A stretch of 63,092 nt of DNA, counting the filler, from Kipferlia bialata (Eukaryota), in the NCBI GenBank assembly GCA_003568945.1. It is 4 parts of 4 records of this genome, joined end to end, with 100 filler letters (N's around TTAATTAATTAA, not from the genome) between each part and the next. Parts side by side here need not be neighbours in the genome. Positions count along the whole stretch, not along the records: positions 19,300 to 38,485 come from BDIP01000440.1; 3 more parts are not named here. One strand, given 5' to 3'. The notes under the pieces were generated by a model that ran no database searches, was not told the origin of the DNA, and saw only the letters and a list, made by a program, of their open reading frames with translations. Below are positions 9,444-63,001 of this stretch, piece after piece; position 1 is the stretch's first letter; each line of letters starts with the position of its first letter. The position numbers were made by a program, and so were the translations under genes.

Positions 9444-9500
<57 letters not shown>

Positions 9501-15500: not shown

Positions 15501-16635
15501 ATATGTATATATATGAATACATATAGGTACCTGCATGCCCCTCACTGCAGCACAGACGGTACATCAGGGTAGGTGTATATACTAGAATCCACATACCCAC
15601 ACCCACCCTCTATATAGGATGTTACACTCATCTAGATAGCTAGTTACATACCTGCATGCCCCTGACTGCAGCACAGACGGCGTCTCTGAAGATGGCCCTG
15701 TCCTGAGGTCAGGAGAGAGGTAGAGAATCAATAGAGATATATGTCAGAGATCAACATAACAGGTAGGGTACCAGCATGCAGCTATTTATGGGAGAGAGAG
15801 ACAAAAGGATGAGTGCTCTCGATATTGCTAACAAGTAGAGTGGAAACTGTCCTGATATCAAGAATGTGCCAAGCATCAGGATATATATAGAAACATAACC
15901 ATGTACAAATATTGATGTATGAATGTATGTATGTATTCACCATACGTTGTCTATTATCAGCCTTAACATAGGATATCCATACCTGAGCCAGTGTCCGTGC
16001 ATAGAACAGTAGTGCTCTGATGAGAGTGGGCTCTCTCTCCCTCTCTCTCTCGACATCCACCTTCTCTCCCTCTGCCTCTCCCCCTGTGAAGAGGTTGGCT
16101 ACTAGGAGAGTCATCAGGAGGGTGGGAATGTGGAGAGACACCTGCCTAAGAGTGCCCTATGGTAAGTAAACAACATTAAATAGTATAGTGAATAGTATAT
16201 ATTGCAGTGTATCTTTAAGGAGAGTCAGCAGGGTGAGTATGGGGAGGGAGACTTCCTAACAGTGCCCTGAAGTGAAAGCCCACCTATATACTTATATAAG
16301 AATAGTACAATTATTGTACAGCTACTTATTACACATATTGTGTAATAAGTACTATCATATGCATATGTTGAGTACTGATACCTGCCACAGCATCGACAAC
16401 ACAATACTTGTGTACATACAAATACATTATTTCATTGTTATTGAATACTGTTGTACATACTCAGTTTACTGATACCTGTGACAGCATCCCTGAGAGACAG
16501 GTGACAGCGAGGACAACAATGTCTGGTGGTTAGATATATATATATATGGCACATAGACACACACACACAGAGAGAGAGAGAGAAAGAGAGATATACAGGT
16601 GACAGCAAGGACCATAATGTCTGGGGATTAGATAT

Positions 16636-16676
<41 letters not shown>

Positions 16677-19199
16677 GGTATGGGACACAGTGCTGCGATA
16701 TATAATACTAGACATGTATAAATGTACCTGTGTTTGATGTATCCCCCTGCGACGCTATATACTATATACTATATACTATATATATATGGACATTGAATCA
16801 CACTATACATACCTGTGTTTGATGTATCTCCCTGCGTGATATATGAGTGTGTGTGGCCAGGTACAGGTACATACACCCACTCCTCACTCTCGTATGACAT
16901 GGGCACATCACCCTCACTCTCACTGTCAACCGCCTCTCTCTCCCTCTCCCTCTCCCTCTCCCTCTCTCTGGGGACTAGTTGGACAAGGGGGGTCAGGATG
17001 TCAAGCAATACCTAACGTGAGTATGTACTATCGTGAATGAACTATCATTAATACTCTACTATACTGTTGATAATTGGGTACTACTTGGACGAGGGGGGTC
17101 AGGATGTCAAGGAGGACCTGAGTGTTAGTAGATAGAGTAATATAGTATATTATGAATGTCAAAATATGCAGTATGGAACAATAATATATGTAAAGAGGGA
17201 TGTCAAGAAGAACCTGAGGTTAACGACAATATGTCTCTATAGGTAGTAAATATTCTTTATCTATATATACCACAGTATTCATACCTTATCAGCCTCCAGC
17301 TCCACCATGACCCGTCTATACATATGGTATACATAGTATATAGCATATATATACAGAGGGTATATACCATAGTATCCATCCATACCTTGTCTGCCTCCAG
17401 CTCCACCATGACCCGCCTCCTGGCCTCCATACCACACACGCCGTCCCTGAGGGTTAGTATATATATAGGTTTGTATATATATACACACATACATACATAT
17501 ATATATGGATAGATATACATAGAAGGAGAGAGAATGAGACTGTCTCCTTGCCTCCATGCCACACACACCGTCCCTAGGGGTAAGGAAGAGGATAGAGTGA
17601 ACAAGTATATATTCCAAGAGATTATTACTGGACTGTCTTCTGGCCTCCATGCCACACACACCATCCCTGGGGGAAAGTAGTATATATGCATATATATACA
17701 TATATGTATATATATACATAAATATAGAGAGAGAAGGAGAGAGAATGCGACTGTATCTATGCCACAAACATCATCCCTAAGGGAAAGCATATATGTATAC
17801 ATATAGAGAGAGAACATAGTGTGTCAGTATATATATATACTTTTGTCCTGTGTGTACCTTAGTGCCTTCAATGCCTGGCTGAGTGTGTCAGATGTGGAGT
17901 ATACATGTATATATACAGAGTTACTACACTGTTTATATATATGTGTATATACTATATACTATTCTGTACCTGAGTGCCTTGAGTGCCTGGCTGAGAGTGT
18001 CTGATGTGGAGTATACAAAAGGTCTATACTAAATACTATATGCATAATATACTATATACAATACATACTATCCCAACCTCAATGCCTTGAGTGCCTGGCT
18101 GAGTGTGTCTGATGTGGATGCAGACACCACAGAGGATAGCAGATCCTGACTGACCTAGTGGTTAAAAAATACAGTGGCGAGAGAGAGGGGGAGGGAGGAA
18201 GGAAGGGGAGGAGACAGAGAGAGAGAGAGAGTCAGATGTGGATGCAGACACCACAGAAGATAGCAGATCGTGGCTGACCTAGAGTGAGGGTATATAGGGG
18301 AAAAGGGGGATGCACAGAGACAGAGACAGAGAGACAACAGAAGGTCCTGGTTACCCTTTGATAAGAGTCTATATACTAAAGGAGAGAGAGAGAGAGAGAG
18401 ATGTGGATGCAGACACAATAGAGGATAACATGTCCTGGCTCTCCAATGAGGTAAGTACATAGAAAGGATAGGAGAGGGAGAGGGAGATAGAGGGAGATAT
18501 ATATATATAGAGAGGGGGGGGGGGGGAGTGAAAGACAGTTGAATGCAGAGGGCTGAACCGACCTGTGATAGGATACTAGCTTACACTCAATCCAGTCACT
18601 CAAAGTCAAGTACTTAGAGAGAGGGAGTCTCACGGGATACTATTCTATTCTGTAGTATACTATCAGACACTCACCCTTCTCAGCATGGACTCATCCAGAC
18701 TTATTGTACAGAGAGAGGGAGTACCAGTACCTCAATCACTAGATACAATACTAACTCTAAGTACTCACCCTTCTCAGCATGGACTCATCACCCAGACTCA
18801 TTGTAGGTTGGTATACAACTCAACTATCTAGATACTATATATAAGTACTTATACTTATATATATATAAGTACTCACCCTTCTCAGCATGGACTCATCACC
18901 CAGACTCATCCTACAGAGAGGGTACTGGTATGTATATATTACTATAGAAGGCTGTACTAAACACTATCATATAGTGAGAACTCACCCTTCTCAGCATGGA
19001 TTCATCACCCAGACTCAGGGACATCTCTCTCTCTCTCTCAGTGTCTCTCTCTCTTGCTGTGAGAGAGTGAGCAAGACTACAGCTCAACACACACTTGAGG
19101 AGAGAGAGAGGGCTCCCTCTCGGCCTTCAGCCACTGGCATTCCTCCACTACAGTCCTCAGCCACTGGCATTCCCCCACTACAGTCCTCAGCCACTGGCA
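7363..19199 (-). CDS. Large multi-exon hypothetical alpha-solenoid (HEAT/ARM-like) protein, 5'-truncated by the contig end
   Basis: Many GT-AG exons with CTNACCCCCAG-type acceptors, e.g. VSLHIPTLLMTLLVANLF...PTLIRALLFYARTLAQ, AVLNTLHSYPVAVGAWACRALCRFLGTLPLSLNTLVEVLDLSPR, RVRTEAMRVLCNLLTPVSSKSQALR and DSLIYAVLVCVCNMAPSVKHP...LIRLMLSATPR. The last exon LYTARGG...EECL ends in TGA at 7363-7365. No family recognised. Confidence 0.6.
19127..19199. repeat. 30-bp tandem repeat (about 2.5 copies) at the contig end
   Basis: Unit cagccactggcattcc(t/c)ccactacagtcct repeats up to the N gap. On the minus strand it reads CQWLRTVV(G/E)E, in frame with the flanking exon. Confidence 0.8.
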
Positions 19200-19299
19200 N
19201 NNNNNNNNNNNNNNNNNNNNNNNNNNNNNNNNNNNNNNNNNNNTTAATTAATTAANNNNNNNNNNNNNNNNNNNNNNNNNNNNNNNNNNNNNNNNNNNN
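19200..19299. other. Artificial contig-join spacer
   Basis: N run, TTAATTAATTAA (stops in all six frames), N run; exactly 100 nt and the same design as the two other joins. Confidence 0.97.
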
Positions 19300-19329: not shown

Positions 19330-19471
19330 TATATATCATATATATATATACCTTTGGTGCGTATGTGTTGGACCCTATGCTGACCCTGAAGGCAGCAGGG
19401 CGCATGTCACTGAGTGAGTAAGCGTCATACCAGTAATAGCATGTAGACTATATTCAAAGTGTAGTGTATAT

Positions 19472-19504
<33 letters not shown>

Positions 19505-20885
19505 AATATCAAGTGTGCTGACCCTGAAGGCAGCAGGACGCATGTCACTAGGGGGTGAGTAAGAGTCATACCAGTAATAGCATGTAGACTATATTCAAAG
19601 TGTAGTATATATATACATACATATATATAAATATCAAGTGTGCTGACCCTGAAGGCAGCGGGACGCATGTCACTGGATGTAAAGACGACAGAACCACAAT
19701 ACACACTGTATATACATAGTATACAGATGAATACAAATATGTATGTATATTGAGTGTACTGACGCAGCAGGGCGCATGTCACTAGGGAGTCATACGGATA
19801 GAACATATATATGTAAGTGTATGTAAAGGTATACAATCTAAACTATTGAATACCTCGTGTACAGCAGAGGGAGTCTGTATAGTATATATAGTATAGTATA
19901 GTATATACATAGTATAGTATAGTGTATATATATTCCAGTTAGTACACCTTGCATACAGCAGAGGGAGTCTGATTTCAAACACCCATTATATATACAATTA
20001 CATATAGAGTAAAGTATACTATATATATAGTACTATAAAATATGTATAAGTATAGTATTAACACCTTGTGTACAACAGAGGCAGTCTGATCTCAAACACC
20101 CTTCCATTATTCACATATATATAGTTATAATTACATATAGAGTTAAGTATACTATATATATATACTATATATAGAGTACAATATACATATGAATAAGTAT
20201 AGTAGTGTGTACCTAGTGTATAATAGAGGCAGTCTGATCTCAAACACCCTCCCATTCAGTCTGGGTGCCCTGTACAGATCGACAGGGATGTCGACGAGGG
20301 CGGCCTCACTTGGGGTTAGGGTATATATACATACATATAGGGGGGAGGGAGAGTTGTCAACAAGAGTGGTCTCACATACATACAGTGGTCTCACATACAT
20401 ACATTGGATAACCCTGGTATCTGACATAAATGCAAATACCTGTCCATGACCGCTGGAATAGCCACCCTTGCCAGTGACACAGACATACATATATAGACCC
20501 CTACCGCTATATAGTAAATAGTACACACGCATATATATATACTATATACTATATATATATACTATATACCTGTCCATCACTGCTGGTATGGCCACCCTTG
20601 CCAGTGACACAGAGAGACGGGAGGACGGCTGGATGATGTCGCTGGAGGGTAAGGGACAGAGGGTGAGAAAATGGGATAACACACTATACAAGTACACTAT
20701 CCCAATGATGTGCAACATATATCAAAATACAACTGTACCTATGAGTGACTGGCCGGAGCAGCTCTGCCAGCAGAATCTGGTACATGCTGCCCTTGCCAAC
20801 ACCTAGGTATTAAGGGTGTAGAGGGAGAGAGAGAGAGAGAGAAATTCTAATATATATATACTGAGGAATGAGTGTATAGGGGTGT

Positions 20886-20916
<31 letters not shown>

Positions 20917-23900
20917 AAGATACCTGGCTCTCCCATAATATATATATGTGAACATGTATACATAATTGAATATACCTGGTTCTATATACATGTGTGAATA
21001 GTGTAGATATGTATGTGTGTATAGATATATATTGAGCTTAATATACCTGGTTCTCCCATGGACAGCACTGGCACCTGGACATATACCTATATATACATAC
21101 ATATACCAAAGAGTGTAGATATATATATATATATATGCATATCTATCTATACACACATACCTGGTTCTCCCATGGACAGGACTGGCACCTGGGCACCCCT
21201 CAGGTTGATGGCATCGATGAACCTAGGGGGTGAGATGTATATGAATATATATATACGTAAACATATATACATAAAGGGAGAGAGAGAAAGACAGGTATGG
21301 TACCTCTGCAGAATGGCCGGTGTCACATTGTACCCGTGGCGTCTGATGATCTTCTCGACCTGGGGGTAAGGGTATAAGTATATATATATATAGACATAGA
21401 TATACATATATAGATAGATAGAGAGAGAGAGAGAGAAACAAAATAATAGTGTCATTGTACCCGTGGCGTCTGATGATCTTCTCGACCTAGGGTTATGAGT
21501 ATATATAGAGCATACACAGACACACACACATATATACATATACCATTAGAGTGGAGTATTGAAGACGAATCATGTGTGAGATCTCGAAGTGTCCTCACCT
21601 CCAATCTCTGAGCAATCTCCCTCTCCCTGTCCTCCGACTCACTCTTGGAGGCACGGCTGGATGTCAGAAGACAATATATATAAGAGAGAGAGAGAGGTAT
21701 AGGAAAGGGGACGTTATTCATAATACATTATATACATATATCTCCCTGTCCTCCGCCTCACTCCTGGAGGCACGGCTGGGGTGAGTAATGTATACATATA
21801 TGAGAGAGAGAGGTGTATATAGACAGCTAGATGCTTAGGGATATAGAGAGATGAGTATCCATATATCTTCATGTCCTCTGCCTCCTGGAGGCACGGCTGG
21901 GGGTTAAAGCATGGTAAATACTAAACACTGCTCATCATACAATGTAGTACTCATAGAGGCAGGGTTAGGGTGAGGGGGCGGTATAGTAATAACTGAAGTG
22001 TATACACACCTCTTTGCCACTGGGTGTGTCATTGGCATATGTATATATGTATGTGTGTGTGTGTGTGTATATATAGTATCAATATGCACTATGTACTATA
22101 CATGTACCTCTTTGCCACCGGGTGTGTGTCATTGGCACTGAGCAGAGCAGCAAGGAGCTTGATCATCATGCGGTAGTCCTGGGGGTTAACCATTGTATAT
22201 TGATAGTATTACATATCTAATATATGGCATGCATCAGTGTGGTAGTCCTAGGGGTAACAGAGTACTCAACAAGACAAACAGAGAGACAAAGACTGCTGGA
22301 TACGCATGGGACAGATATCTGCACACAACCACATATATACATAGGTACTTCAACACACTAGATACATGTACAGTATACATACATACATACCTGCTCCGGG
22401 TCTCCCCCCAGTCTGTACAGGGGCACAGAGCGGAACTTCTTCTAAGGGGTTAGATGGGTACCATATCCACACTATATACACATAGTACATATATACTATA
22501 TGTATATACTAATGTACACTACATATACATACTATATATACCTGTCCAAATGTGAATATGCCGGATGCCTCCATGGACGGGTCCTGCTCGATGCAGTATC
22601 GGGACATCTTGCACTCCTAGGGGGTTAGATACATATATAGGTATATATGAATATCAATTATGTATATATTTACGATATAGTAATGGGAGATGTGCTCGAT
22701 GAAGTATCGGGACATCTTGCACTCCTCGAGGGTTAGAGAGAGAGATAGAGATATAGAGAGGCAATTGGTAAAGTAGTGGAAGGTCTGTCACTCCATACTA
22801 CTCGAGGGTATACATTAATACACACATATATACACTATATACAATCTCCAACCTCGAGTGTCTGTCCGAGTGGAGGGCAAGAAGTTACACTACTCATTGA
22901 ATATGTATATACCATAGATATAGATTAACTATATATGCTCTATATATAGTGTATCATCCACATACCTCCAGGATAGACGTGTCTGTCCGGGTGGAGGGCA
23001 GGACCATGACAGCCTGGGGGTCAGGAACATATATACATATATATGAATATATATATATGTATACATGTATATATAATAATACTATCATGTGAAAGTGTGA
23101 TAGTTGTGTATATGGGCAAGACCATGACAGCCTGGGGGTGAGGAACATATGAATACATACCATTTCAAGAGAGAGACAACAGCAAGAATGATCAACATAT
23201 TCGTTCACTGACCAGCTTCACATACTCCCAGAGTCACTAACCTGTAGCTTTACTTTAGCACTCATTGGATTGGGGTGGGGCAGGAAGACCAGCCTCATGT
23301 TGACATCCTCCAGCAGAGGCTCAGTCTCTCTCTCTCTCTCTGTCCCTGTCTCTCCCTCTCCATCTGAATATGAGAACAAACACAGTGAGGGTGTAGACTA
23401 AAGAACTCAACGGGGGTAGAGAGAGATCCTATACCTGCAGCCTTCCCAGTCACTGGGGAGAGCCTCTCGCCCTTGATTAGGGCAACCCTGGAGTGAGACA
23501 ACCTCAATACGTAGTTGGAATGCATTCATATATATACTATGTTTACTATGTTTACAGTACAGAAACTCTACTACTACTTCTTGGATGTTTCCACTGTGAG
23601 GAGTATATCGATAAATACAATACACAAAACATACCATACCCATACATACACAGTATACAATGCCCATCTATCTATACCTGTTCTTGAACGTGTCCACTGT
23701 GGACACACGCACAATATACATACTAGTCCATATATATACATATACCTCAGTATATATATATGTACATATATACACACACATATACATATATCTAGATACA
23801 TATATATATACCTGTTCTTGAACGTGTCCACTGTGAGCACTGTGGACACACGCACAAGGGCGTCAAACAGACCCCTGGAGAGTTAGCACGTATACTAGAG

Positions 23901-24085
23901 GTGGACATATACATATATATACATGGAGTTATCTATGTATAGATATAGGCACAAGGGCATCGAAGAGACCCCTGGAGAGTGAGTGGAGAATAGTGATAGG
24001 TTGAGGCACATAGCGACAGCGAAATATGTCAAATGAACGAGAATACAGAAGAAACACTGTCCCCTTACTGTATATAAAATAAATA

Positions 24086-24131
<46 letters not shown>

Positions 24132-26366
24132 TGATGTGGTATATGTCCACTGTGTTGATGATGCGGAAGAAGGTACATATATATACATATATACATATAT
24201 TTATATATATATACACATATATAGTAGTGTCCCTATACTCTATCATGTGGCATATACAGATAGTACCATACCTGATGTGGTATATGTCCACTGTGTTGAT
24301 GATGCGGAAGAAGGTGTGGCCCAGGATCCTGGGGGTAAGAATAGGGCATATATATATGGATAGATAGATAGATATATAGACAGGTAGAGAGAGAGAGAGA
24401 GAGAGATGCGGAAGAGGGTGTGGCCAAGGATCCTGGGGGTGAGTACTAGAAGAGTAATGCATGTGTGTATATATAAAGAAGGTCCAGACCATATGGCACA
24501 TAGAACACAGTATATATATACATGTAAATACCTGATGAAAGTGTCAATCTCAGTTAATGATAGGCCCCTCCCACACTCCACAGACAGCCTTGAGAGGAGA
24601 TCGAGACCAGCCTTGACAACGTCATCAGAGACACGGCCACCCTGGACCTATGGTTAGTAGTCTCTCTCTCTCCTACATGTAGAAGACTTGAAGTACAAGG
24701 ACTGGGGGATAGTAATGATGATTCTAACCTGTGGCCCCATCTCATTCTTGATCTGCTGCATGTGCTATTCAGCAGAATACACCTATACTCTGTACTAACA
24801 TATATATAGTATATATATATATATACTTGGTTACATAGTGTATATACTTGGTTATATACTCACTTGGGGTCCCATCTCATTCTTGATCTGCTGCATGTGC
24901 TTCTCGGCAGAATACACATATACTCTGTACTAACATTATATAGTATATATAATAGTATACATATATATATATATACATACATATATATACCTGTGGTCCC
25001 ATCTCATTCTTGATCTGCTGCATGTGCTTCTCAGCTGCATGGGCACTCTTCTTGACAGACTGCTTGAAGGACTAGATGTTAGTATATGTATATAAGAAAA
25101 ATGTATATATATATAGAGAGAGAGAGAGAGCGAGAGAGAGAGAGTAGTATGGGCACTCTTCTTGACAGACTGCTTGAAGGACTGGGTATTAGTATACATA
25201 TATAGATAGAGAGAGAGCGAGAGAGAGAGAGAGAGAGAGAGAGAGTAGTAGCATGGACACTCTTCTTGACAGACTGCTTGAAGGACTAAGGGTAAGTACT
25301 ACATGTCTGAAAAGAGAGAGAGAGAGAGAGAGAGACACGTACACTCATCGCAAGAGAGTACATACACATATGAATATACCTTGGTCTGTACCAACTGATG
25401 GCACGTGGCCACCACCACAAAGCATATCCTGGACCACTGGGAGATGGGGGAGTAGGAGGTGCCAATAGCCTAGGGGTGAGGTATATGTATATACTGTATA
25501 TACTATGTATATACATATATATATTATGTATATCCTGGACCACTGGGAGATGGGGGAGTATGATGTGCCGATATCCTAGAGGTAAGCAACGAACGAATGA
25601 TATATATACAGCGAATACAGTATATACCTCACTGTCTGCGTCCTTGTCCCCTGCATGCACCCCCACTCTATGTATAGTGTATATACTATACTATATACAC
25701 TATCATATATAAATATATAGTATATATACCTCGCTGTCTGCGTCCTTGTCCCCTGCATGCACCCCCACCCTGTGTACAGTGTATATACTATACTATATAC
25801 ACTACTATATATATAGATGTATATACTGACCTCACTATCAGCGTCCCTGTCCCCTGCATGCACCCCCACCCTGTGTATGGACACATAGGACTGGGGCTTG
25901 GCCTTGTACTTGGCAGCTGTGGAGCCTAAGGGGGTAGAGAGAGAGAGAGAGAGAGAGGTGACTGGGCCTTGTACTTGGCAGCAGTGGAGCCTAGTAGGGT
26001 CAGAAGACATATACATATATACACTTGTATATATATAGTTATATATATATATGTATATATATATATAGGACTGGGCCTTGGATTTGTACTTGGAGGCTTT
26101 CGATCCTAGGGGGTTAGAGAAGAGAGAGTGGGGGGGAAGATGGAGGGAGAGAGAGGGGGGGGAGAGAGAGAGAGATGACTGGGCCTTGGCCTTGTACTTG
26201 GCAGCAGTGGAGCCTAGGGTTAGAGAGATAGTTTGGGAGTATCCAGAAATGGACATAGCAGCTATGTATATAGTACACACACATACCCAGCAGGAAGTGT
26301 GACACTGGAAGGAGTGTGTCGAGGTAGGCCTCGGGGGTCATGTCCACATCAGGCTGATATAAGGGT

Positions 26367-26400
<34 letters not shown>

Positions 26401-27184
26401 GCCTCTGGGGTCATGTCCACATCAGGCTGATATAAGTGTGTATAAGGGTGTCGACAGAGAGAGAGAGAGAGAGAGAGAGAGTCCAGAGAGGTCCCCACCA
26501 GGCTCTGGGGGGAGACGTGTACAGTAATACTAATACAACAGAATAACCATTTAGTGTACAATGAACTACCCCTACCTCCTTTGCCTCCCCCTTCTTCCCC
26601 TTTCTCTTCTTGGCCTTCTTGGGCTTCTTGCCCCGGTTGGCTATGACCTAAGGGTAAGGAACACATTAATATATCATATATACTATATATATACTATATA
26701 TATACTATATATTCTATATAGTAGCATATGTCTATATACAATATGACCTTCTTGGGCTTCTTGCCCCGGTTGGCAATGACCTAAGGGTAAGCGAATATTG
26801 AGTTGGTGAGTGTGACTATGTATATACACTATATGTATGGTATATCAATAAACCTGTTGGCGTGTCCTGAGGACATGGAACAGGTATCGGTACAAAGTAT
26901 ATATATACCACTATACACAGTATATGTAATACATATAGTATAACGATACAAATTATAATGTGTAGAAAATGAGCACCTGCTGTGGTGTCCTGAGTACATG
27001 GAACAGGTGGTATACATACTATACATATATAATATACTCTATCCACTGAATATACATACACTATATATACAGTATATATACAGTATATATACCTGCTGAG
27101 GTGTCCTGAGGACATGGAACAGGTGGTATATATTACCATACTATATATGAATACTAATGTATTTTACAATACTCTGGGCACAGC

Positions 27185-27215
<31 letters not shown>

Positions 27216-27316
27216 TATATCTATATACACCTGCTGTGGTGTCCTGAGGACATGGAACAGGTGGTAGTTGGGCACGAGGGACTGGGGGACAAGGGCTGAG
27301 ATAAGGATATATGAAT

Positions 27317-27356
<40 letters not shown>

Positions 27357-28431
27357 TTGGGCACAGGGGACAAGGGCTGGAGGGTGAGGATACAGAAGCA
27401 TGCACATACACTATATGTAGGCATCACACACATATATATAGTAACTGGGTCTGTCTTGACTGGATCCATATACACACATATCAGATAGATACTACATTAT
27501 GACATATACACCATATACAATATGTATATGTATACACACACATATATACATATATATACAGTACCTGGGTTTGTCTTGACTGGATCCACCGAGCACAGGG
27601 TCCTGTCAGACAGAGAGCCTGGGGGTCAGTGTGTATATACTCATACTGTACAGTGTATATACATATATTATATATATATACCGAGCACAGTGTCCTGTCA
27701 GAGAGGGAGCCTGGGGGTCAGAGAGGTACATATCAGAGGAAACAGCAACAGCTAAACGTATGTAGAATTCACAAGTATAGGGTTTCACACTCTATGCATA
27801 GTATACCTAGTGCTGGTAGTTCTAGGAACAGGTGCATCTTGCACCCCACCCTGAGACAGGGGCTGAAGGTGTACAGGCCAGTGTCATCTGATATCAGAGA
27901 GAGAGAGGAAGAGAGAGAGGGAGGGAGAGAGGGAGATGTATACAGCATATACTCTAGTTGTATAGAGTACATATAGATACAATAGAAATAGGCTGAAGGT
28001 GTAGAGGCCAGTGTCATCTGGAATGAGATACATACTGTATACAATACAAGTGCCATATGTACAAAGAGTACAGGGAGAGGGAAAGACAGTCACTAACCTG
28101 TCACACTTCCAGTGAGCAATAGGTTGGTCAGCACATGGTGTACAGCGATGTATATAAACACATAAATATATAGTATACTCACATACCTGTCACACTCCCA
28201 GTGAGTAATAGGTTGGTCAGCACATGGTGCACAGCAGTGGGTATATTGTGAGTAATAGGTTGGTCAAGACGTGGTGGACAGCAGTATGTATATATATATA
28301 TATATAGTATATAAATATACGTTTATAAATAAATATATATACCTGTCACAGATCCTGTCAACAGCAGGTTGGTCAGCACATGGTGCACAGCAGTATGTAT
28401 ATATATATATATATAGTATATATATATATAC

Positions 28432-28472
<41 letters not shown>

Positions 28473-29221
28473 GGATATATACCTGTAACACTCCCTGTCA
28501 ATAGCAGGTTGGTCAGCACATGGTGCACGGCGGTGGGGTCAGCAAATAGACTCAGGTCCTGAGGGGGTTAGATACGGCGTATAACATATACACTGTGTAT
28601 AATGTAGTATATAATCTAGTATACATATATACTAACAGACACACATATATATAGACAGCGGTGGGATCGGCAAACAGACTCAGGTCCTGAAGGTTATATA
28701 ACTGATGCTTACAATACATTCTGGGTGTGTAATAGTGTAGTATACAAATACATGTACTAATATGTATATAGTATATATGCACAGTGGGGTCGGCAAATAG
28801 ACTAAGGTCCTGGGGGGGGTTAGATACAGATATGGAGGCGTGGGTTTCTATATAAATTTTTTTTCTATATATATTCATATTTGTGTATTCACACACCATG
28901 TGGAGTCCAATGTTCTGCTTGTTCTCTAATTCTCCCTCTCTCTCTCTCCCTCCACTATCTCTCTCTTTCCCTTTCTACATATACACATATACATATATAT
29001 ATACATACATATATATACATGTTACATACCATGTGGAGTCCAATGTTCTGCTTGTTCTTGGGGGCAGCTGGGCTGAAGGAGGCCTGGGGTGAGGGGGATA
29101 TACACATTTATACATAGAGTATATACATAAAGAGTATATACGATATTCATATACACATACAGCTGGGCTGAAGGAGGCCTGGGATAAGGGGGGTGGAGAA
29201 TATTAGTATATACAGCAATAT

Positions 29222-29257
<36 letters not shown>

Positions 29258-29853
29258 GAGCATATTATGTATATCAGCTGGGCTGAAGGAGGCCTAGAGT
29301 GAGTCTTAGCACTTAGACAGAGGATACAACTAATATAAATAGAGTATATACATCAGAGTTTATACTGTAGGGCTGAAGGAGGCCAAAGACCATACCTGGT
29401 AGAGCTCTGAACAGGGACCAAGGGCCACAGTATATATATATTGAATGTACATATATGACATATGACACTGATTGAATAGTACATACATACACTTAAAAGT
29501 ACCCTATATATATATGCTGTACCTGGTTGAGCTCTGAACAGAGGCCTAGTGCGACGCATGAGTTGTAGGACTCGTCAAAGATAAGCCTGGGGTCAATCTA
29601 TACACATAGATATACATATATACTTATAGATATATACATACATATGTAGATATACATAGAAAGACAGAGAGATGCTGTAGGACTCATCGAAGATAAGCCT
29701 GGGATAAAGTCTAATCAAAATAGATTAAATGACACCAAATAATACTGTATCGCAAAATATGGAGAGCGATATACATATCCACATATATACCTCCTTCTGC
29801 ATGCACTCCCCAGACTTCATACATGCAACATAGTATACTGTATACATATTGTA

Positions 29854-29897
<44 letters not shown>

Positions 29898-30127
29898 CCT
29901 CCTCCTACAGGCACTGCCCAGTCTCAATAGGGCACTCCTCATCAGGACATGGTGGATACACATAGTATACTGTATACATAATGTATATATATATATATAT
30001 ATATATATTAGTATATATATACCTTCTCCTACATGCACTGCCCAGTCTGAGCAGGGCACTCCTCATCAGGACATGGTGGGTCTTGCCACTGCCAGGGGCA
30101 CCTAGGTATAAGGTATACATATATATG

Positions 30128-30159
<32 letters not shown>

Positions 30160-30492
30160 CATGGTGGGTCTTGCCACTGCCAGGGGCACCTGGAGGGTTA
30201 GGTATACATATATATATATATATATATAGGGAGAGAGAGAGAGAGACATGGTGGGTCTTGCCACTGCCAGGGGCACCTGGATACATAAGTATGCATATAT
30301 ATGTACATATATAGGTACATTACTGTATATATATATATATATAGGGAGAGATAGAGACATGGTGGGTCTTGCCACTCCCAGGGGCACCTGAGGTTAACAC
30401 CATATATGTATACAACACTATGAATGCGGGTATATATATAGGGGGGGGGGGACTGCCAGGGGCACCTAGGGGGTTAAAGAGTATATACGTAA

Positions 30493-30527
<35 letters not shown>

Positions 30528-31386
30528 TGGTGGGTCTTGCCACTGCCAGGGGCACTTAGAGTTAAAGGTAAAGGATCATATACACACATGGGATATATAG
30601 AGAGAGATAAAGCATGTTGACTCTATATGTACAATATAACACAGTACCATAAATATATATATAGAGAGAGAGGGTGTATACCTGCCACTATCTCCGTTGT
30701 GATGGACGTGGACAGGATGTTATACAAATAGTACATATAGTATAGGACAGTGTACCGGACATATGTATACTATTAGATATACATATAATGCAGTACCTGC
30801 CACAATCTCTGTTGTGATGGACGGGGACAGGATAATGTAGAGAGACTATACTCATTCATATATACCACTACATATATGCCACTATATACATATACCAGTA
30901 TAGTGCATACCTGCCACAATCTCTGTTGTGATGGACGGTGACAGGATGTTGGGTCGGGCCTTACCAAGCTGCTTGAGCTGGTATTAGTGTATATAGTATA
31001 CTAATAGAATACTTGAATAGAGTATATACACATAGGAGAGATAGAGAGAATGAGATTTAGGAAGGGATGTTGGATCTGGCCTTGCCAAGCTGCTTGAGCT
31101 GGGGGTGAGTGTGAAGTATCATACACATGTGGTGAAAATAGGGTACAATGTGTAGTACGCCATGTATCGATTGCAATCCCAACCTGCACTTCCATCTTGG
31201 CCTTGTCAGGCACCACCTCGGGGTGGAATGATACTATACATCATATACATATATATGTACATATATATATATTACATTGTATATACTCATGGTATAGTGT
31301 GTATATATAGTAATATATATATATATACCTGCACTTCCATCTTGGCCAGGTCTGGCACCACCTCTGGGTGGTATGATACTATAAAT

Positions 31387-31417
<31 letters not shown>

Positions 31418-31995
31418 CATATATATATAACATATACACTATACACTCATGGTATACTATATACATATATATATATTGTATTTACCAACCTGCACTTCCA
31501 TCTTGGCCAGGTCTGGCACCACCTCGGGGTGGAATGATACTATACCCACACTTCCATCTTTGCTAGGTCTGGTACCACCTCGGGGTGGTATGATACTATA
31601 CATCATATATATATTTATATATATATCATATATATATAACATATACACTATACACTTATGGTATACTATATTTATACCTGCACTTCCATCTTGGCCAGGT
31701 CTGGCACCACCTCGGGGTGGTATGATACTATACCCAATACATCATATACATATATATCGTATACACTATACACTTATGGTATACTACATATATACCTGTA
31801 CTTCCATCTTGGCCAGGTCTGGCACCACCTCGGGGTGGTTGAGGAGCTCAAGCACACCAGAGAGAGACTGGCTGGTACTGATATTAGTGGATATAGAAAT
31901 CTATAGTTAGTATATATAGAGAGAGAGAGAGGGATCTGGGTGGTTGAGGAGCTCAAGCACACCGGACAGGGACTGACTCTTGCTAGAGTAAGAGT

Positions 31996-32026
<31 letters not shown>

Positions 32027-35000
32027 TCTGGGTGGTTCAGAACAGACACCGGACAGGGACTGGCTGGTGCTAGAGTTAGTCAATAGACAAAGAGTGAGAG
32101 GTGTAATATCTACCTTCCCACTACATAGCACAGCTTCCCCCTCAGTGACAGAGTGGTGTCAGGTAGGACTGACACCAGGTCTGGGTTGACTGCTGTGTTG
32201 TCAGAGGACCCAGCAAGAGGTCGCCTCAGAAGGGCACGCTGGAGGCGCTCAATCTGCTATTAGACACTGTTGTATATATATGACTATTGTACATATATGA
32301 CTATATATATATACAGCAAGGGGACGTCTCAGAAGGGCACGCTGCAGACGCTCGATCTAAAGAGTCAGATGAAACATGAAAATAACGAAGTCTATACATA
32401 CATTAACCAACACACCTCTGTACCTTATACCTCTGTATTAGTATATATAGTAGTATACATATAGTATATACACATATCTCCATACCTCTCTGACCAGTCT
32501 GTGGCTGAGGTAGTCAGGTGATAGAGCATTTCATTTATTGCATATACATGTACTGTATATGTATCATATATACCATAAGTATTACATAACATACCTCTCT
32601 GACCAGTCTGTGGCTGAGGTAGACAAGTGATGATAGTAGAGGATAGCATACATAGTATATATATCCTGTATTATATACATTTAGTATATCCACACACATA
32701 CCTCTCTGACCAGTCTGTGGCTGAGGTAGTCGGGACGCAGCAGGAGGACACGCCTGAGATGAGGTACACGTTGAACAATATCCACATATACTAGTATACA
32801 TACCTAGATGCATAACCAGGAGGTACCACACAGGTATATAGATAGAACAGCAGAAGAACACACCATGGGTAAGGTATGGCATAGTACAGTTTACGTATGG
32901 TACATACACACAAATTAAGATGGAGGGCATGTGAAACAATTCCTGTTTGTGTGTGACTCACTCGTCATGCACATATATGCATAGAATACGGTATCACTAA
33001 CCTGTTGGTATGTGCCACACTGGCAAACACCCTCCTCAGATCAGCTATATATTATATATGCAAATATATAATGAATTACTCAACCTGTTGGTGTGTGCTA
33101 CACTCTGGAAGACCCTCCTCAGGTCTGCTGTTGTGGTATGGGGGCCACACCAGTAGAGCTGGCTGGACCTGGGTCTGTACCCAAACACAAGATGCAGGGT
33201 GTATGTGAGAGCGTCCTGGAGTAAGGGATATACATATAGAGCGAGAGAGAGAGTATATGGGTCTGTACCCGAAGACAAGGTGCAGTGTATAGGTCAATGC
33301 ATCCTATAGTGAGGGAGGGGGGGAGCTGACGATATATATATATATATATACACAGCATATACACCTCATGAGTATAGGACATTGCCTCTGTCTGACTCAG
33401 TGGGTACTGGGTATATAGTGTATAGGTATGTATAATGTGTATTCATATATATATACATACAGTATACACCTGGTGTGTGTATGGCATGGCCTCTGTCTGA
33501 CTCAGTGGGTATAGGTAGACTACTAATGTATGCACATGGCATATACATATATATATATATATGCATATATACACTAATACATATATAGTATATAGTCTAT
33601 ATATACCTGGTGTGTGTATGGCATGGCCTCTGTCTGACTCAGTGGGTCCTGTGTCCCTGCTATACCAGGGGGTAGACGCACAAACAGCTGCTGGGCACCT
33701 ACATGTAAGATAACACTTACAGCAATAATCACACCCAGATATAGCGACAGTAATAGATGTGTGTATAAGTATGTACACATACCTGGTCCACCAAGGTCTG
33801 TTGCAAACTGCATCAGGGAGCGTCTCATGAACTTTCCAACGGTGTGGGGGATGCATGCACTGGAGGGGGGGAACTGGGGTAAAGAATGGCCTGTATATAT
33901 ATATATATATATATACAATACATATACGTTATATCAAAATTGTAATGTGTATTGGGGAGTGCATGCACTGGAGGGGGGGAACTGGGGTAAAATACGACTA
34001 TAGTATATATATATATATAGATACAATACATATACGTTATATTTAAACTGTAATGTGTACTGGGGGATGCATGCACTGGAGGGGGGGAACTGGGGTGAGA
34101 CATGGCTATATATATATGTATATACTATATATATATACACTATATCAAAATTGTAATGTGTATTGGGGGATGCATGCACTGGAGGGGGGGAACTGGGGTC
34201 AGTATCTCTCTACAACATATATATCATACACAACGTATCAATCAGAAGTACATCTCAGTATACAGAACATCTACATACCTTAGTCACTGTGACTAGCCCA
34301 TGTATACAATGATATACATATATATATATATATATAGTGAGTATATATATAATGAGTAGATATATATCTAGTGTACCTTAGTCACTGTGACTAGGCCTGT
34401 TGCCTGGATGCCAGCCAACAGATGCCCAATCTCACACAGACACTCGGAGACCTGGATTAGACAGACATATAAGCACATATAGATGTATACACACACATAT
34501 ATATATTCACAAATATATATGTGTAAATACTTGGCCAATCTCACATAGGCACTCGGAGACCTGGGGGTCAGATATATATATATCAGATACAAATACATAT
34601 ACGTAAGTACTATGTATAGATATGTACAAATATATACCTTGTGCATTCCTAGCAGGAGGTCCCACTGGATGGGCAGGTCGGTATCACCCCTGCTCCTCCT
34701 CTCTCTCTCCCTCTCCCTCTCCCTCTCCCCCTCTGTAATGCCAGTCTCTATCTGCTTGGCCTTGGCGGCCCTAAGCATCTTGCTACGGTGCCTCTGGAAG
34801 TTAGAGATACAAACGGTACTCGTGGGGAAGAGAGAGAGAAAAAAAAATTGGTACCTGCACCCTTTCTAGCTCCATCTGCTTCTCCCTCTCCTCGCTGTCC
34901 TCATTGATGGTGTATATACATGTATATATATATGTACATATACATAGTATAAAGCTAGAGCATCAAAGACAAGTACCTGCACCCTTTCTAACTCCATCTG

Positions 35001-36499
35001 CCTCTCCCTCTCCTCCTCACTGTCCTCATTGATAGTGTATATACATGTATATATAGTATATATATACATAGTATATACATATACCATAGATATGTACCTG
35101 TACTCTCTCTAGCTCCATCTGCCTCTCTCTCTCCTCCTCACTGTCCTCATTGATGGGGGGGAGGGCCTCTGCTGGTACCTCTTCCTCTGGTATCTAGAGT
35201 TAGTGACACACATATATATAGATTGATAGACAGAGAGAGAGAGAGATTAGTCATTGATGGGGGGGAGGGCCTCATCTGCAGGGGTATCCTCGGGTATCTG
35301 GTGTTACTATATACGTGTGAATTTACAGATATTAATGTACATACAGACTTTACCTCTATTGGTAGCATGTTGTCTGGCCTGAGACTCTCTCTCTCTGTCT
35401 CTCTCTCTCAATNNNNNNNNNNNNNNNNNNGGCCTGAGACTCTCTCTCTCTGTCTCTCTCTCTCAATATATATATATATGTATATATATATATGTATGTG
35501 TGTGTATATACCTCTATAGGCAGCATGTTGTCTGGCCTCAGACTCCTCTCCAGCTGGGGGGACCTGGCCTCATAGGCTGCAACACTGGGGTTAGTATACA
35601 TATATATGTATACTAATTAGTACATATATATATATACACTGGGGTTAGAGGGTATATACATATATATGTATACGTATTAGTACATATATAAATATACAGA
35701 TACAGATACATATATAGAGAGGGAGCTGTGGGGGACCTGGCCTCATAGGCTGCAACACTGGTATTATAGGGTATATACATACATATACATATATATACAT
35801 ACACATAGGTATATAGAGAGAGGGCGAGAGGGGGGGGGGGGTATGGGGGACCTGGCCTCATAGGCTGCAACACTGGGGTGAGAGGGTATATACATATAAT
35901 TGTGGACATATTGGTGTATACATTATATATATATAGTATATATAGAGAGAGAGGGGTATGGGTGGGCCTGGCCTCATAGGCACATATAGATAGATAGATA
36001 TACTTATATATATATATAGACAGAGAGAGAGAGAGATACCTGTATATGTCAGTCTCGCACAGAGGCTTGGGGGGCAGGACAGGGGATATATACATACATA
36101 GAGTAATACTACTACATATATACACACACATGTATATAGAGTAACACTAGCATATGTATATACCTGTATATGTCTGTCTCGCACAGAGGCTTGGGGGGCA
36201 GGACAGGGGTGAAGGCAGAAAGTCCCTGGGAGGTAAGAGTATAGGGAGAGGAAGAGAGAGATGGGGGTAAGGAGAGATGTAGAAGTTGAGAGGGGGGGGA
36301 GAGAAAAGAGGTAATGAAGGTGAAAGCAGACAGGCCCTGGGGTAAGCTCTTGTATGTGCGCTGAAATATATAATTACATTTATATACTTATGTACATTAG
36401 AATACCTGGTGTGCCGTCACAAGCTCTTGGATGTGCATGACATTGGGTGTGTGCCTCCTAAAGTACTTGTCAAGGGAGCCCTAGGAGTCAATACATATA

Positions 36500-36532
<33 letters not shown>

Positions 36533-37053
36533 CATAGATATTCATATATATATGTAGAGAGAGAGGGAGAGAGAGATGGATGGATGACATAGGGTGTGTG
36601 CCTCCTGAAGTGTTTGTCAAGGGAGCCCTGGAGTCAATATACAGATATATATATACAGATATATGTAGACAGATAGAATCGTACCCTGACCCTTCTGAGT
36701 GTGTCTGGCTCAACCTCCAGGGGGGTGTCGCTGATGCACCTGAAATTAAGCAGTGTATGTATATAGTGAGAGAGAGAGAAAGGAATACATGGTATATATA
36801 TGCATATATATATGTGTGTGTGTCTGGCCCCAGAGGGGTGTCACCGATGCACCTAGAGGTAAGTGTAGTCACTTAGATACACACAGAGACTGGTGAGTAA
36901 GATGGTATACAATTAACTCACTTGAATACATGAAAGAACAATACACTATCCCACCTCATGAGTGACACTATGTCCAGCATTGGCTCAAGGACTGACTGGT
37001 GATATATATATCATACTATATATACATGTATGTATCATGATATATCATAACTG

Positions 37054-37084
<31 letters not shown>

Positions 37085-37810
37085 CTCATGAGTGACACTA
37101 TGTCCAGCACTGGCTCCAGGACTGACTGGTGATATATATAATAGCCACATATATATATATACATCATAACTACTTATACATGTATGCATCATGATATATC
37201 ATAACTGTATATATATATGTATATATATATATGTCATACCTCATGAGTGACACTATGTCCAGCACTGGCTCCAGGACTGACTGGTTCCTGTCACACTGGG
37301 CACGGTAGTGCAAGGCACTGAGGTAAGTTAAATAAATATATATATATATAGAAAGAGAGAGAGCACTGGGCACGGTAGTGCAAGGAACTGGGGTAAGAGA
37401 AATAAGGGTGTAGGGAGAGAGAGAGAGAGAGATAGGTGTACTATAGATCAACTGTATACATGTCCATAACCAACAGGGCCTTGCTCACTGACAGGAATGA
37501 CAGTAGAAGGTGTATATATACATAGCATACTATATATATATATATACAGTATAAATATATTTACCTGTCCATCACTAGCAATGCCTTACTAACAGGCAGG
37601 AATGATAGCAGAGGGTGTGTGTCCATGACAGCAGCAAGACATGCAGGCCACTCAGTACGGACAGTGTCAAGCTCCTGAAGGGTTAGATATACATAAGGAA
37701 AGTCTATAATACATTACAGAACCAATATAGTACAAGTGTGTGTAATGTATACATAGACATGCAGGTCACTCAGTACGGACTGTATCTAATTCCTAGGGTA
37801 AGAGCGACAT

Positions 37811-37843
<33 letters not shown>

Positions 37844-37937
37844 CGTACAGCTATCACATCCGATAAGAAGTCTGCATCGATGTCTGAGTCCAACAGATAT
37901 ACATAGATATTATATACTCATATACTTAAATACATAC

Positions 37938-37968
<31 letters not shown>

Positions 37969-38485
37969 CATACCGCAATGACATCCGATAAGAAGTCTGC
38001 ATCGATGTCTGAGTCCAACAGATATACACAAATACTATTTACATATGTATACATATATTATGTATATATATATATATACGTATAGTGTAGATATACACTA
38101 CTATAACACACTACATACCGCTATCACATCCGATAAGAAGTCTGCATCGATGTCTGAGTCCAACAGATAGGCACGGCGGAAGGCAGCAGGGTAGCCTGAA
38201 GATGAGAGAGAAGAGACGCAGATAGATAGAGAGAGAGAGAGTATACATATACATCATTCATACATACTATATTACTACAACTAGATTACGTATATATATT
38301 CTACACGGTACCTATATTGTGTAGCCCAGCCAGTGTGTCAGGAAGGGTATATATATATATATACACAAATATGTATACATATGCATGCATTCCTATATAC
38401 TACAATAGTACTATTGTACTACGTATGTATATTCTACACGGTACCTATATCGTGTAGCCCAGCCAGTGTGTCTGCCAGGTGTGTC
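19330..38485 (-). CDS. RNF213/mysterin-like (dynein/midasin-related) multi-AAA+ protein, internal fragment with dozens of small exons
   Basis: The spliced translation has blocks in the same order as the RNF213 AAA core as I recall it: PRSSQLYWCGPHTTTADLRRVF, LLLRPDYLSHRL, Walker A GAPGSGKT (exon 30023-30101), IGLHMDLSLFADPTAVHHVLTNLLLTGSVTDDTGLYTF...HLFLELP, and GYNVTPAILQRFIDAINLRGAQVPVLSMGEPGVGKG (exons 21161-21222 and 20739-20802; compare RNF213 YELTTDNMLKILAIEMRFRCGIPVIIMGETGCGKT). Neither end is in the contig. Confidence 0.72.
28097..28811 (-). repeat. Exon-echo array around exon 28483-28558
   Basis: Two upstream copies carry acceptor plus 5' half (about 28657-28690, 28780-28811). Three downstream copies carry 3' half plus donor (about 28342-28393, 28186-28240, 28097-28147). 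All encode parts of DLSLFADPTAVHHVLTNLLLTGSVT with different codons. Confidence 0.9.
29789..30560 (-). repeat. Exon-echo array around the Walker A exon 30023-30101
   Basis: Five upstream copies of the GAPG(SGKTHH) exon start, one truncated and one with an altered acceptor. Two downstream copies of ...LGSACRR|gt. Spacers are (TA)n/(GA)n-rich. Confidence 0.9.
31182..31870 (-). repeat. Near-identical tandem exon-echo array (EVVPDLAKMEVQ|gt, about six copies)
   Basis: acctgcacttccatcttggccaggtctggcaccacctcggggtgg recurs near 31182, 31327, 31488, 31549 (partial), 31675 and 31794 (complete exon). Part of the spacer (tatgatactata...) is duplicated as well. Confidence 0.9.
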
Positions 38486-38585
38486 NNNNNNNNNNNNNNN
38501 NNNNNNNNNNNNNNNNNNNNNNNNNNNNNTTAATTAATTAANNNNNNNNNNNNNNNNNNNNNNNNNNNNNNNNNNNNNNNNNNNN
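38486..38585. other. Artificial contig-join spacer
   Basis: N run, TTAATTAATTAA, N run; 100 nt. Confidence 0.97.
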
Positions 38586-56723: not shown

Positions 56724-56805
56724 GTACTGATGAGTCAGGTATGTATGTATAGAGTAGATGTATAAGTATATATATATACATTTATAGAGAGAGAATGAGA
56801 CAGAG

Positions 56806-57756: not shown

Positions 57757-57856
57757 NNNNNNNNNNNNNNNNNNNNNNNNNNNNNNNNNNNNNNNNNNNN
57801 TTAATTAATTAANNNNNNNNNNNNNNNNNNNNNNNNNNNNNNNNNNNNNNNNNNNN
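57757..57856. other. Artificial contig-join spacer
   Basis: N run, TTAATTAATTAA, N run; 100 nt. Confidence 0.97.
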
Positions 57857-62500: not shown

Positions 62501-63001
62501 GTATGTATACATAGTGACGGTGCCCCCCTAAGTGTATATAATCGTGTATTTGTATGCATTAGCCCACCTGACCCGCATAGTCCCCTGTGTGGGGGTGGAC
62601 AGAGATGGTGTATCTCTTGCGAGCGGTGAGGATGCACTGGAACCGGGGCTTACGGCTGTGGGTGAGTGAAGTATATGAACGCGTCGACATGCAGCGGAGA
62701 CTCCAGAGTATATTGGTACTAAAGTGGTGACGTACCAGTTGACCAGATAGTCCTCTGGCCTGAGTCTGAAGAGTAGCTCCACCACCTCCTGCTCTGTCCT
62801 AGGCTCATGGTCCAGCACAAGCATCACTCCCGCATTGGACCTGGGGTAAGGCAGAGAGGTATGTATATATACGTATATATATATCCACTGTACCTGTCGT
62901 CGAGTGCCTTCTTCACCATGGGGTCTCCGTCCACACAGTCCAGCACAGAGCCAACAACACCCATCTGTCTCAGCTGGTCGGGGACAGCACCGCCTCTCCA
63001 C
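59547..63001 (-). CDS. SMC5: Structural maintenance of chromosomes protein 5, C-terminal coiled coil and ABC-ATPase head
   Basis: RSGGENSVSSL (signature motif), FPFRVVDEINQG|MDHKNE (Walker B and D-loop in the SMC5-specific form PFRVVDEINQGMD) and QYFIGTPKLP. Charged coiled-coil exons lie upstream. TAG at 59547-59549. Confidence 0.9.

What the first reader, a model, noticed from the sequence alone, without database searches (positions are those of the whole stretch)
30101..30560. Decoy acceptors: strict polarity of echoes implies strong exon definition
Seen: five copies of the exon start lie upstream of the only complete exon. Some have a better branch-point/acceptor match (ctaaccctccag|GTGCC near 30190) than the complete exon (ccttatacctag|GTGCC). 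In the arrays examined across the window, acceptor-bearing halves are upstream and donor-bearing halves are downstream. Inference: the spliceosome must skip several consensus sites and pair the innermost acceptor and donor across the exon, or remove the intron recursively. That would be unexpected for a lineage whose well-studied relatives (Giardia, Trichomonas) have few, mostly short introns.
Basis: partly seen in the sequence, partly recalled or inferred. Interest (0 to 1): 0.72.

Follow-up and report, generated by a model that had tools for sequence, protein, structure and literature searches.

The report
Retired allele half-exons stacked in introns
In the free-living protist Kipferlia, 36 of 44 introns of one gene hold leftover half-copies of the neighbouring exons with working-looking splice signals; the spliced RNA skips them in the five introns tested, and their mostly silent sequence differences suggest they likely are retired versions of the gene from other alleles.

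Summary
Observation confirmed (minus strand, Kipferlia bialata gene KIPB_002591): five copies of the exon start precede the one complete exon; four keep AG and two outscore the used acceptor. Polarity is strict (124 of 124 half-copies) but is a geometric necessity of head-to-tail duplication across a splice site, so it does not itself imply exon definition. A spliced RNA contig joins only innermost sites in five neighbouring introns of the same gene; the finding's own intron has indirect support only. Recursive or nested removal cannot be general (4 of 26 acceptor arrays start with GT). Such repeats are known as amphioxus 'mirages'. New here: density (36 of 44 introns) and a coding signature. 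Half-copies differ from the used exon almost only silently (pN/pS 0.087; 0.092 in three further exon chains), keep AG/GT (39 of 40, 34 of 35) and branch motifs, while their intronic parts are nearly unrelated; outermost copies are most decayed. So they likely were once functional alleles, displaced outward by unequal recombination or one-sided repair. Site strength does not predict choice, so exon context likely does, in a spliceosome with no detected U1-70K or U2AF35.

The parts
30023..30101 (-). Complete (used) exon 18 of gene C, 79 nt, encodes the Walker A-like motif GAPGSGKT
   Evidence: Chain of innermost exons equals P0001 letter for letter; only this acceptor keeps the frame; motif aligns with paralog P0002
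30158..30189 (-). Acceptor half-copy 5 (innermost), 32 nt identical to exon start, intact AG, matrix score 11.4
   Evidence: use adds 88 nt and shifts frame
30245..30276 (-). Acceptor half-copy 4, 32 nt identical, intact AG, weak branch context (3.2)
30356..30387 (-). Acceptor half-copy 3, 32 nt with one synonymous change, intact AG (7.3)
30452..30465 (-). Acceptor half-copy 2, 14 nt, intact AG (9.4)
30527..30555 (-). Acceptor half-copy 1 (outermost), 29 nt, acceptor reads AA (dead in register)
30102..30910 (-). Intron 17 as annotated (809 nt): two donor half-copies, core intron, five acceptor half-copies
30911..30977 (-). Complete exon 17 (67 nt), upstream donor
30797..30833 (-). Donor half-copy 1 of exon 17 (37 nt, intact GT)
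30682..30721 (-). Donor half-copy 2 of exon 17 (40 nt, intact GT; 3 of 4 changes synonymous)
31065..31098 (-). Acceptor half-copy of exon 17 (34 nt; 2 of 3 changes synonymous)
29899..29955 (-). Donor half-copy of exon 18 (57 nt, intact GT; 4 of 5 changes synonymous)
29791..29817 (-). Second, more diverged donor half-copy of exon 18, below the finder's threshold
   Evidence: seen (family D12); not in the counts
19352..38195 (-). Gene C, 45 exons (median 73 nt), 44 introns (median 327 nt), 75 site-bearing half-copies in 50 arrays; = KIPB_002591 (P0001)
25072..25379 (-). RNA-verified intron 28 (308 nt) skipping two intact acceptor decoys; no donor decoy, exon does not start with GT
24329..24531 (-). 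RNA-verified intron 30 (203 nt) skipping one intact acceptor decoy with two distinguishing letters
7707..19056 (-). Exon chain D (27 exons, 1000 aa, no stop), likely the continuation of gene C across the assembly gap; 26 site-bearing half-copies

Best explanation
The array is a mirage-type stack of intron-end plus half-exon copies that the cell likely skips here as the RNA shows it does in five neighbouring introns, and each copy likely was once the working splice site of a diverged allele that was pushed outward by unequal recombination or one-sided repair. Shown: structure, polarity, frameshift or stop from 71 of 73 intact decoys, innermost use in five neighbouring introns, synonymous bias, intact signals, more decay in outermost copies. 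Inferred origin: a break or crossover inside an exon is mended from a homologue whose exon is about 95% alike but whose intron is not; one side joins by exon homology, the other by non-homologous joining into (TA)n/(TC)n intron DNA, so the new intron end and half-exon take over and the old ones stay outside as a relic; later unequal exchange within the exon part adds further relics next to the exon, oldest outermost. Inferred splicing: the site is chosen by the exon context that follows or precedes it (pairing across the short exon, or exon enhancers against microsatellite intron sequence), not by its strength or by the shortest intron; copies holding too much exon would be spliced in and are purged.
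For: Echo versus used exon in gene C: 105 synonymous, 30 non-synonymous differences, 103 of 135 at third positions, pN/pS 0.087, alike for transitions (0.12) and transversions (0.08). Replicated in three other chains: 75 vs 21, 0.092. An identical duplicate that decays neutrally predicts 38-47% synonymous; observed 92 of 120 unique changes, P at most 3e-11. Changes placed on echo branches: 22 vs 12, P at most 5e-5. Outermost copies pN/pS 0.21 vs inner 0.05 (Fisher P 0.025). AG intact in 39 of 40, GT in 34 of 35; branch motif YTNAC in 30 of 40 decoys vs 31 of 45 used and 50 of 619 other intronic AGs, while 40 nt of intron beside the site is near background (0.69 vs 0.62; 0.68 vs 0.66) and the exon part is 95% identical. 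Direction of synonymous change is balanced (37 GC-to-AT, 31 AT-to-GC), as between two functional versions. RNA: one 6190-nt contig covers only complete exons and carries the used copies' letters. For the finding's stretch, the run holds 0.12 of words and the innermost chain alone predicts 0.122. No whole-exon copy among 50 arrays (28% expected) and half-copies capped at 46 and 57 nt (P 1e-9, 2e-5) under random duplication. Context: diploid by k-mer analysis (PMC5874029); metamonads lack NHEJ and lean on homologous repair (PMC8516963).
Against: No RNA was laid on the finding's own intron. RNA is one run of assembled contigs, which drop rare forms, so decoy use is unmeasured and NMD could hide some. 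No second allele or strain was seen: only one contig was laid at 90% likeness and no related locus was found, so the donor alleles are inferred, not observed. Intron divergence near saturation against about 18-21% synonymous divergence needs much faster intron evolution, which is assumed. In the finding's own array the exon parts are nearly identical (one synonymous change in five copies), so the signature there is weak by itself. The length cap could be set by the repair mechanism instead of selection. Donor decoys are on average weaker than used donors (9.25 vs 11.66, P 0.013), so strength contributes on that side. All from one short-read assembly.
Confidence: 0.62

Rival explanations
1. Ordinary mirages: identical sister-chromatid tandem duplicates that were never functional and decay neutrally.
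For: Polarity, tandem spacing (median unit 118 nt) and silence in the RNA fit; some units are nearly identical to neighbours including intron parts.
Against: Predicts pN/pS of about 0.5 or more; observed 0.087 and 0.092, and 0.16 on echo branches. Predicts equal decay of exon and intron parts and loss of AG/GT; observed a sharp step at the splice site with signals kept.
Confidence: 0.1
2. The copies are under selection where they lie: frequent deletion between a copy and the used exon (somatic or each generation) or a minor splicing route puts outer copies into protein.
For: Would keep signals and coding sense intact; amphioxus mirages are reported as somatically unstable (PMC3087553, passages).
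Against: The RNA contig carries inner letters at every distinguishable site (4 of 5 acceptor decoys, 4 of 5 donor decoys in five introns); breakpoints lack GT/AG; outermost copies do decay, with one nonsense change.
Confidence: 0.12
3. Assembly artefact: pieces of diverged haplotypes in the culture were strung together in tandem.
For: Echoes look like other alleles; unit length (65-296, median 118 nt) is near read length; the published assembly is fragmented short-read SPAdes of a diploid.
Against: Junctions run from mid-exon into intron microsatellite with no long shared word, which a de Bruijn path cannot invent (established knowledge); up to five distinct versions per exon; only one RNA version seen; assembly size matches the k-mer estimate of 49-54 Mb; an SMC-like gene in the same window has none at the threshold.
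Confidence: 0.08
4. The long introns are removed stepwise (recursive AG|GT ratchets or nested inside-out removal), so decoys are used.
For: This array's exon starts with GT, so splicing to a decoy leaves AG|GT; core introns between outermost decoys are of normal size (median 112 nt).
Against: Only 4 of 26 acceptor arrays start with GT (9 of 45 exons overall); regenerated donor here scores 2.5, below all used donors; 10 introns have acceptor decoys with no donor decoy and no GT start, one of them RNA-verified.
Confidence: 0.05

Closest known systems
Amphioxus 'mirages' (globins BflGb6 and BflGb9, Adh3, troponin C, PGBD5): PMC3087553 (abstract, passages, supplementary file 4) and PMC3902484 (passages)
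   Same: Tandem duplications of exon-intron boundaries, on both sides, units of about 60-160 bp, many keeping AG/GT, normal splicing reported. By eye, many exon-part differences in the BflGb6 alignment also fall on third codon positions (not counted).
   Different: There a few loci; here 36 of 44 introns of one gene and three further chains. BflGb6 units align along their intron parts (81-100% identity reported); here intron parts are near background. The passages read call the mechanism unclear and mention no coding signature.
Human minisatellites whose first unit spans an exon-intron boundary (F7 intron 7, CBS, LMNB2, PDGF, 6-16): PMC1557585 (abstract, passages)
   Same: Reiterated donor pseudo-sites that are functional but silent; the most upstream donor is used.
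   Different: Rare loci, donor side, near-identical units; F7 units hold only 4 exon bases. Here both sides, 14-57 nt of exon, diverged units, most introns.
Intron gain by tandem duplication of AGGT (Rogers model; PMC3265369, passages)
   Same: Short intragenic tandem duplication creating duplicated splice signals.
   Different: No new intron arises: breakpoints carry no donor or acceptor; existing introns lengthen (used median 327 nt vs core median 112 nt).
Duplicated splice-site experiments in globin genes (described in PMC1557585 passages; Reed and Maniatis 1986 recalled, not held)
   Same: Competition between identical sites decided by context; as recalled, shortening the exon beside a site shifts use to the site with the full exon.
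   Different: Artificial constructs in mammalian systems; here natural and dense, in a spliceosome with 87 of 174 proteins detected and no detected U1-70K, U2AF35 or SF1 (PMC6679479 section 11 and supplementary file 9).

Membership tests
Mirage repeats | [quoted passage not shown] | tested here: met
   75 site-bearing copies in 50 arrays, unit median 118 nt
Mirage repeats | Both 5' and 3' exon boundaries can be duplicated | tested here: met
   62 exon-start and 62 exon-end copies
Mirage repeats | Many but not all units keep AG/GT | tested here: met
   39 of 40 and 34 of 35; 19 of 21 and 25 of 27
Mirage repeats | Normal splicing is not disturbed | tested here: met
   Major contig uses innermost sites in five neighbouring introns; finding's own intron indirect only; minor forms not measurable
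Mirage repeats | Units alike along their whole length (concerted evolution) | tested here: not met
   Exon part 95% identical, intron part near background
Mirage repeats | Copy-number instability between haplotypes or somatic cells | not testable with these tools
   No second haplotype, strain or DNA run available
Recursive splicing | Acceptor immediately followed by a usable regenerated donor (AG|GT) | tested here: not met
   4 of 26 arrays start with GT; score here 2.5 vs weakest used donor 2.8
Recursive splicing | Intermediates or lariats at the ratchet point | not testable with these tools
   No raw or nascent reads listed
Nested (inside-out) intron removal | A donor decoy to pair with each acceptor decoy | tested here: not met
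   16 introns have more acceptor than donor decoys without a GT start, 10 have no donor decoy
Exon definition | Short exons; the pair across the exon is preferred over the pair giving the shortest intron | tested here: met
   Exons 48-156 nt; used intron is the longest option in RNA-tested introns
Exon definition | Acceptor use depends on the downstream donor (donor loss causes skipping) | not testable with these tools
   Needs mutants; local enhancer or silencer context fits equally
Exon definition | U1-70K and U2AF35 bridging through SR proteins (recalled as the animal mechanism) | not tested
   Published table lists SR proteins and U2AF65 as present, U1-70K, U2AF35 and SF1 as not detected in K. 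bialata; not re-searched here
Rogers-type intron gain | Duplication inside an exon yields a new GT-AG intron | tested here: not met
   Breakpoints run into microsatellite without splice signals

The most novel reading that the evidence does not exclude
Kipferlia continually swaps splice sites and half-exons between highly diverged alleles by one-sided homologous repair, leaving the displaced versions stacked in its introns in order of age. Its introns would then be a genome-wide fossil record of past alleles that roughly triples intron length, and its reduced spliceosome, without detectable U1-70K or U2AF35, would pick the right site among consensus-quality decoys at better than 95% per array by an undescribed exon-recognition route. 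The same allele-capture process may underlie amphioxus mirages.
Probability: 0.45. Interest if true: 0.82.

Novelty: new variant of a known kind. Interest (0 to 1): 0.66.

Why it matters
It gives a likely mechanism for a repeat class whose origin the amphioxus paper calls unclear, with a test that needs only sequence (synonymous bias, age order). It offers a very large natural competition experiment on how identical-strength splice sites are chosen: with 49 decoy-bearing arrays in one gene and 71 of 73 decoys giving premature stops, even a 10% yield needs about 95% accuracy per array, in an organism whose usual exon-bridging factors were not detected. It also shows a route of intron lengthening and splice-site turnover without intron gain, and warns that gene finders can take echoes for exons (my own DP did).

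Tried and rejected
No whole genome was held, so the census is limited to this window. No run on record as RNA was listed; one run with RNA as a guess was; its GT-AG joints show it is spliced. No relative of P0001 in metagenome contigs. Pfam gave nothing significant for P0001 or P0002; the only other hit in the representative search was a K. bialata paralog, so the gene's family is unnamed; 'Walker A-like' is my recalled label. Automatic exon prediction included echoes as exons and was replaced by hand-built chains; several chains had coordinate slips, corrected; chains E, G and the plus-strand gene kept unresolved frames and are left out of the pN/pS figures; one 14-nt match without an in-register acceptor context (29383) is in the polarity count but dropped from site and codon counts. 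Rejected: a single event inserting a whole new exon into the old one, because acceptor and donor echoes do not co-occur more than chance (20 exons vs 17.5, P 0.42) and their breakpoints coincide only weakly (P about 0.08-0.09). Rejected: polarity as evidence for exon definition. Ten literature searches listed no paper describing these repeats in Kipferlia or a synonymous signature in mirages; most subscription papers are not covered, and Canestro 2002 and Reed and Maniatis 1986 were not held. Supplements of PMC5874029 and PMC8516963 were not read and may bear on ploidy and on repair genes in K. bialata.

Full report
Identity. The window is intron-dense eukaryotic DNA; the finding lies on the minus strand. 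One exon retrieved a single protein at 100% identity, Kipferlia bialata KIPB_002591 (P0001, 1170 aa). A chain of 45 exons built by hand from the innermost acceptor and donor of each exon (38195 to 19352) translates to P0001 exactly, with AG and GT at every border. The deposited models were made with AUGUSTUS and transcript hints (PMC5874029, passages), so this agreement is support but not proof. A paralog (P0002, KIPB_000973) aligns through the GAPGSGKT motif that the finding's exon encodes and on into later exons.

Observation. Five copies of the exon start (30555, 30465, 30387, 30276, 30189) precede the complete exon 30101-30023. The outermost has AA instead of AG and one is 14 nt long. Two of the five outscore the used acceptor. 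Every in-register decoy shifts the frame by one base. In gene C, 41 exon-start copies all lie upstream and 35 exon-end copies all downstream; three more chains add 21 and 27; none of 124 is reversed. 36 of 44 introns of gene C hold at least one copy, and in all 14 introns with both kinds the donor copies precede the acceptor copies.

Polarity is geometry. A head-to-tail duplication over an acceptor leaves only the last copy joined to the rest of the exon; over a donor only the first. So polarity is expected under any splicing model. What is informative is what is missing: random duplications of the observed unit lengths would give whole-exon copies in 28% of arrays and half-copies over 46 nt (acceptor) or 57 nt (donor) in 54% and 37%; none occurs in 50 arrays. 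That points to purging of copies with too much exon, or to a mechanistic length limit.

Which sites are used. One run (X1, RNA by the tool's guess, contigs only) was laid on 24000-25478. A single 6190-nt contig at depth 73 covers only complete exons, with joints skipping 308 and 203 nt at GT-AG ends and contiguous record positions across a third intron; its loose ends match the complete exons 27 and 32, not their copies. Over five introns it passes five acceptor decoys and five donor decoys; four of each differ in letters from the used copy, and the contig carries the used letters. For the finding's own intron the evidence is indirect: the run holds 0.12 of the words of 27000-36000 and the innermost chain alone predicts 0.122; the contig's length places its start in a low-complexity repeat of exon 9 if no decoy is used (weak). 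Contigs drop rare forms, so decoy use is not measured.

How the site is chosen. Decoy acceptors score as well as used ones (8.99 vs 8.33, P 0.35; other intronic AGs -3.15), decoy donors somewhat lower (9.25 vs 11.66, P 0.013). The used acceptor is the top scorer in 9 of 26 arrays (11.2 by chance), the used donor in 14 of 23 (9.9). The shortest-intron rule would pick the core (median 112 nt), yet the used intron is the longest option (median 327 nt). Recursive removal needs AG|GT, present in 4 of 26 arrays; nested removal needs donor decoys, absent in 10 such introns, one RNA-verified. 71 of 73 intact decoys give a premature stop, so with 49 arrays a 10% yield needs 95% accuracy each. Exon context therefore likely decides; cross-exon pairing and local enhancer or silencer context are not separable here. 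A published table finds SR proteins and U2AF65 but not U1-70K, U2AF35 or SF1 in K. bialata (PMC6679479, section 11 and supplementary file 9), which may reflect divergence or an incomplete assembly.

The copies are not neutral duplicates. Against the used exon they show 105 synonymous and 30 non-synonymous differences (pN/pS 0.087, pS 0.18), replicated at 75 and 21 (0.092) in three other chains. An identical duplicate decaying neutrally predicts at most 47% synonymous (P at most 3e-11 on 120 unique changes). Changes that can be placed on an echo's own branch are still 22 to 12. AG survives in 39 of 40 and GT in 34 of 35, branch motifs as often as at used sites, while the intron beside them is barely more alike than unrelated introns. 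Outermost copies are the most decayed (0.21 vs 0.05), as in the finding's array, whose outermost acceptor is dead. The simplest reading is that each copy diverged while it was a working splice site in another allele and was displaced later.

Mechanism (inferred). Exons are the only well-matched stretches between such alleles. A break or crossover inside an exon can pair there, while its other end joins without homology into (TA)n or (TC)n intron DNA, which is what follows or precedes most breakpoints. The incoming intron end and half-exon take over and the old ones stay outside; repeats of this, and unequal exchange in the exon part, add relics beside the exon and push older ones outward. K. 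bialata is reported diploid and metamonads lack NHEJ and rely on homologous repair (PMC8516963, passages). A coupled insertion of a whole exon was tested and not supported. No donor allele was observed: one RNA version only, no related locus.

Known relatives and novelty. The structure is that of amphioxus mirages (PMC3087553, abstract, passages, supplementary file 4; PMC3902484, passages) and of human boundary-spanning minisatellites (PMC1557585, abstract and passages). An earlier-findings look-up pointed me to mirages; I read the papers myself. It differs in density, in near-unrelated intron parts, and in the measured coding signature; by eye the BflGb6 alignment also has many third-position differences, so the process may be shared. 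Ten searches of the held library listed no description of these repeats in Kipferlia.

Verdict. Real in the assembly, silent in the RNA where tested, a new variant of a known kind. The polarity argument fails, the skipping claim stands, and the allele-relic signature is the more surprising result. Interest 0.66.

Noticed in passing
window 48853 and 56331 (minus strand): Two introns appear to end in AT, not AG, after a canonical branch motif. Both chains are open only this way (454 and 408 aa, no stops; no in-frame AG nearby), and three upstream echoes of the 48853 exon (49131, 49039, 48953) all keep AT. No RNA check.
   Followed up: partly
window 19352 to 19056, across the gap at 19200-19299: Gene C and chain D are probably one gene: the RNA contig runs 3372 nt past exon 45 and chain D sums to 3004 nt plus unassigned ends.
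   Followed up: partly
window 59667-63001 (minus strand): An SMC-like gene (weak SMC_N match, E 0.024) has no half-copy of 14 nt or more in 17 introns, against 75 in 44 introns of gene C; echo load differs strongly between genes.
   Followed up: no
window 19200-19299, 38486-38585, 57757-57856: Contigs are joined by N runs around a 12-base linker; adjacency across them is not guaranteed.
   Followed up: no
window 19352-38195: All 45 used donors of gene C have G at -1 and 41 have A at -2; the branch A lies mostly 7-9 nt from the exon start. The protein has two Walker A-like motifs and no Pfam match.
   Followed up: partly
window 44878-50456 and 51750-56726 (minus strand), 57906-59220 (plus strand): Two MATE-like transporter genes and a glycosidase-like gene (labels recalled from the translations, not from a call) also carry half-copies; the plus-strand gene has two donor echoes downstream.
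   Followed up: partly
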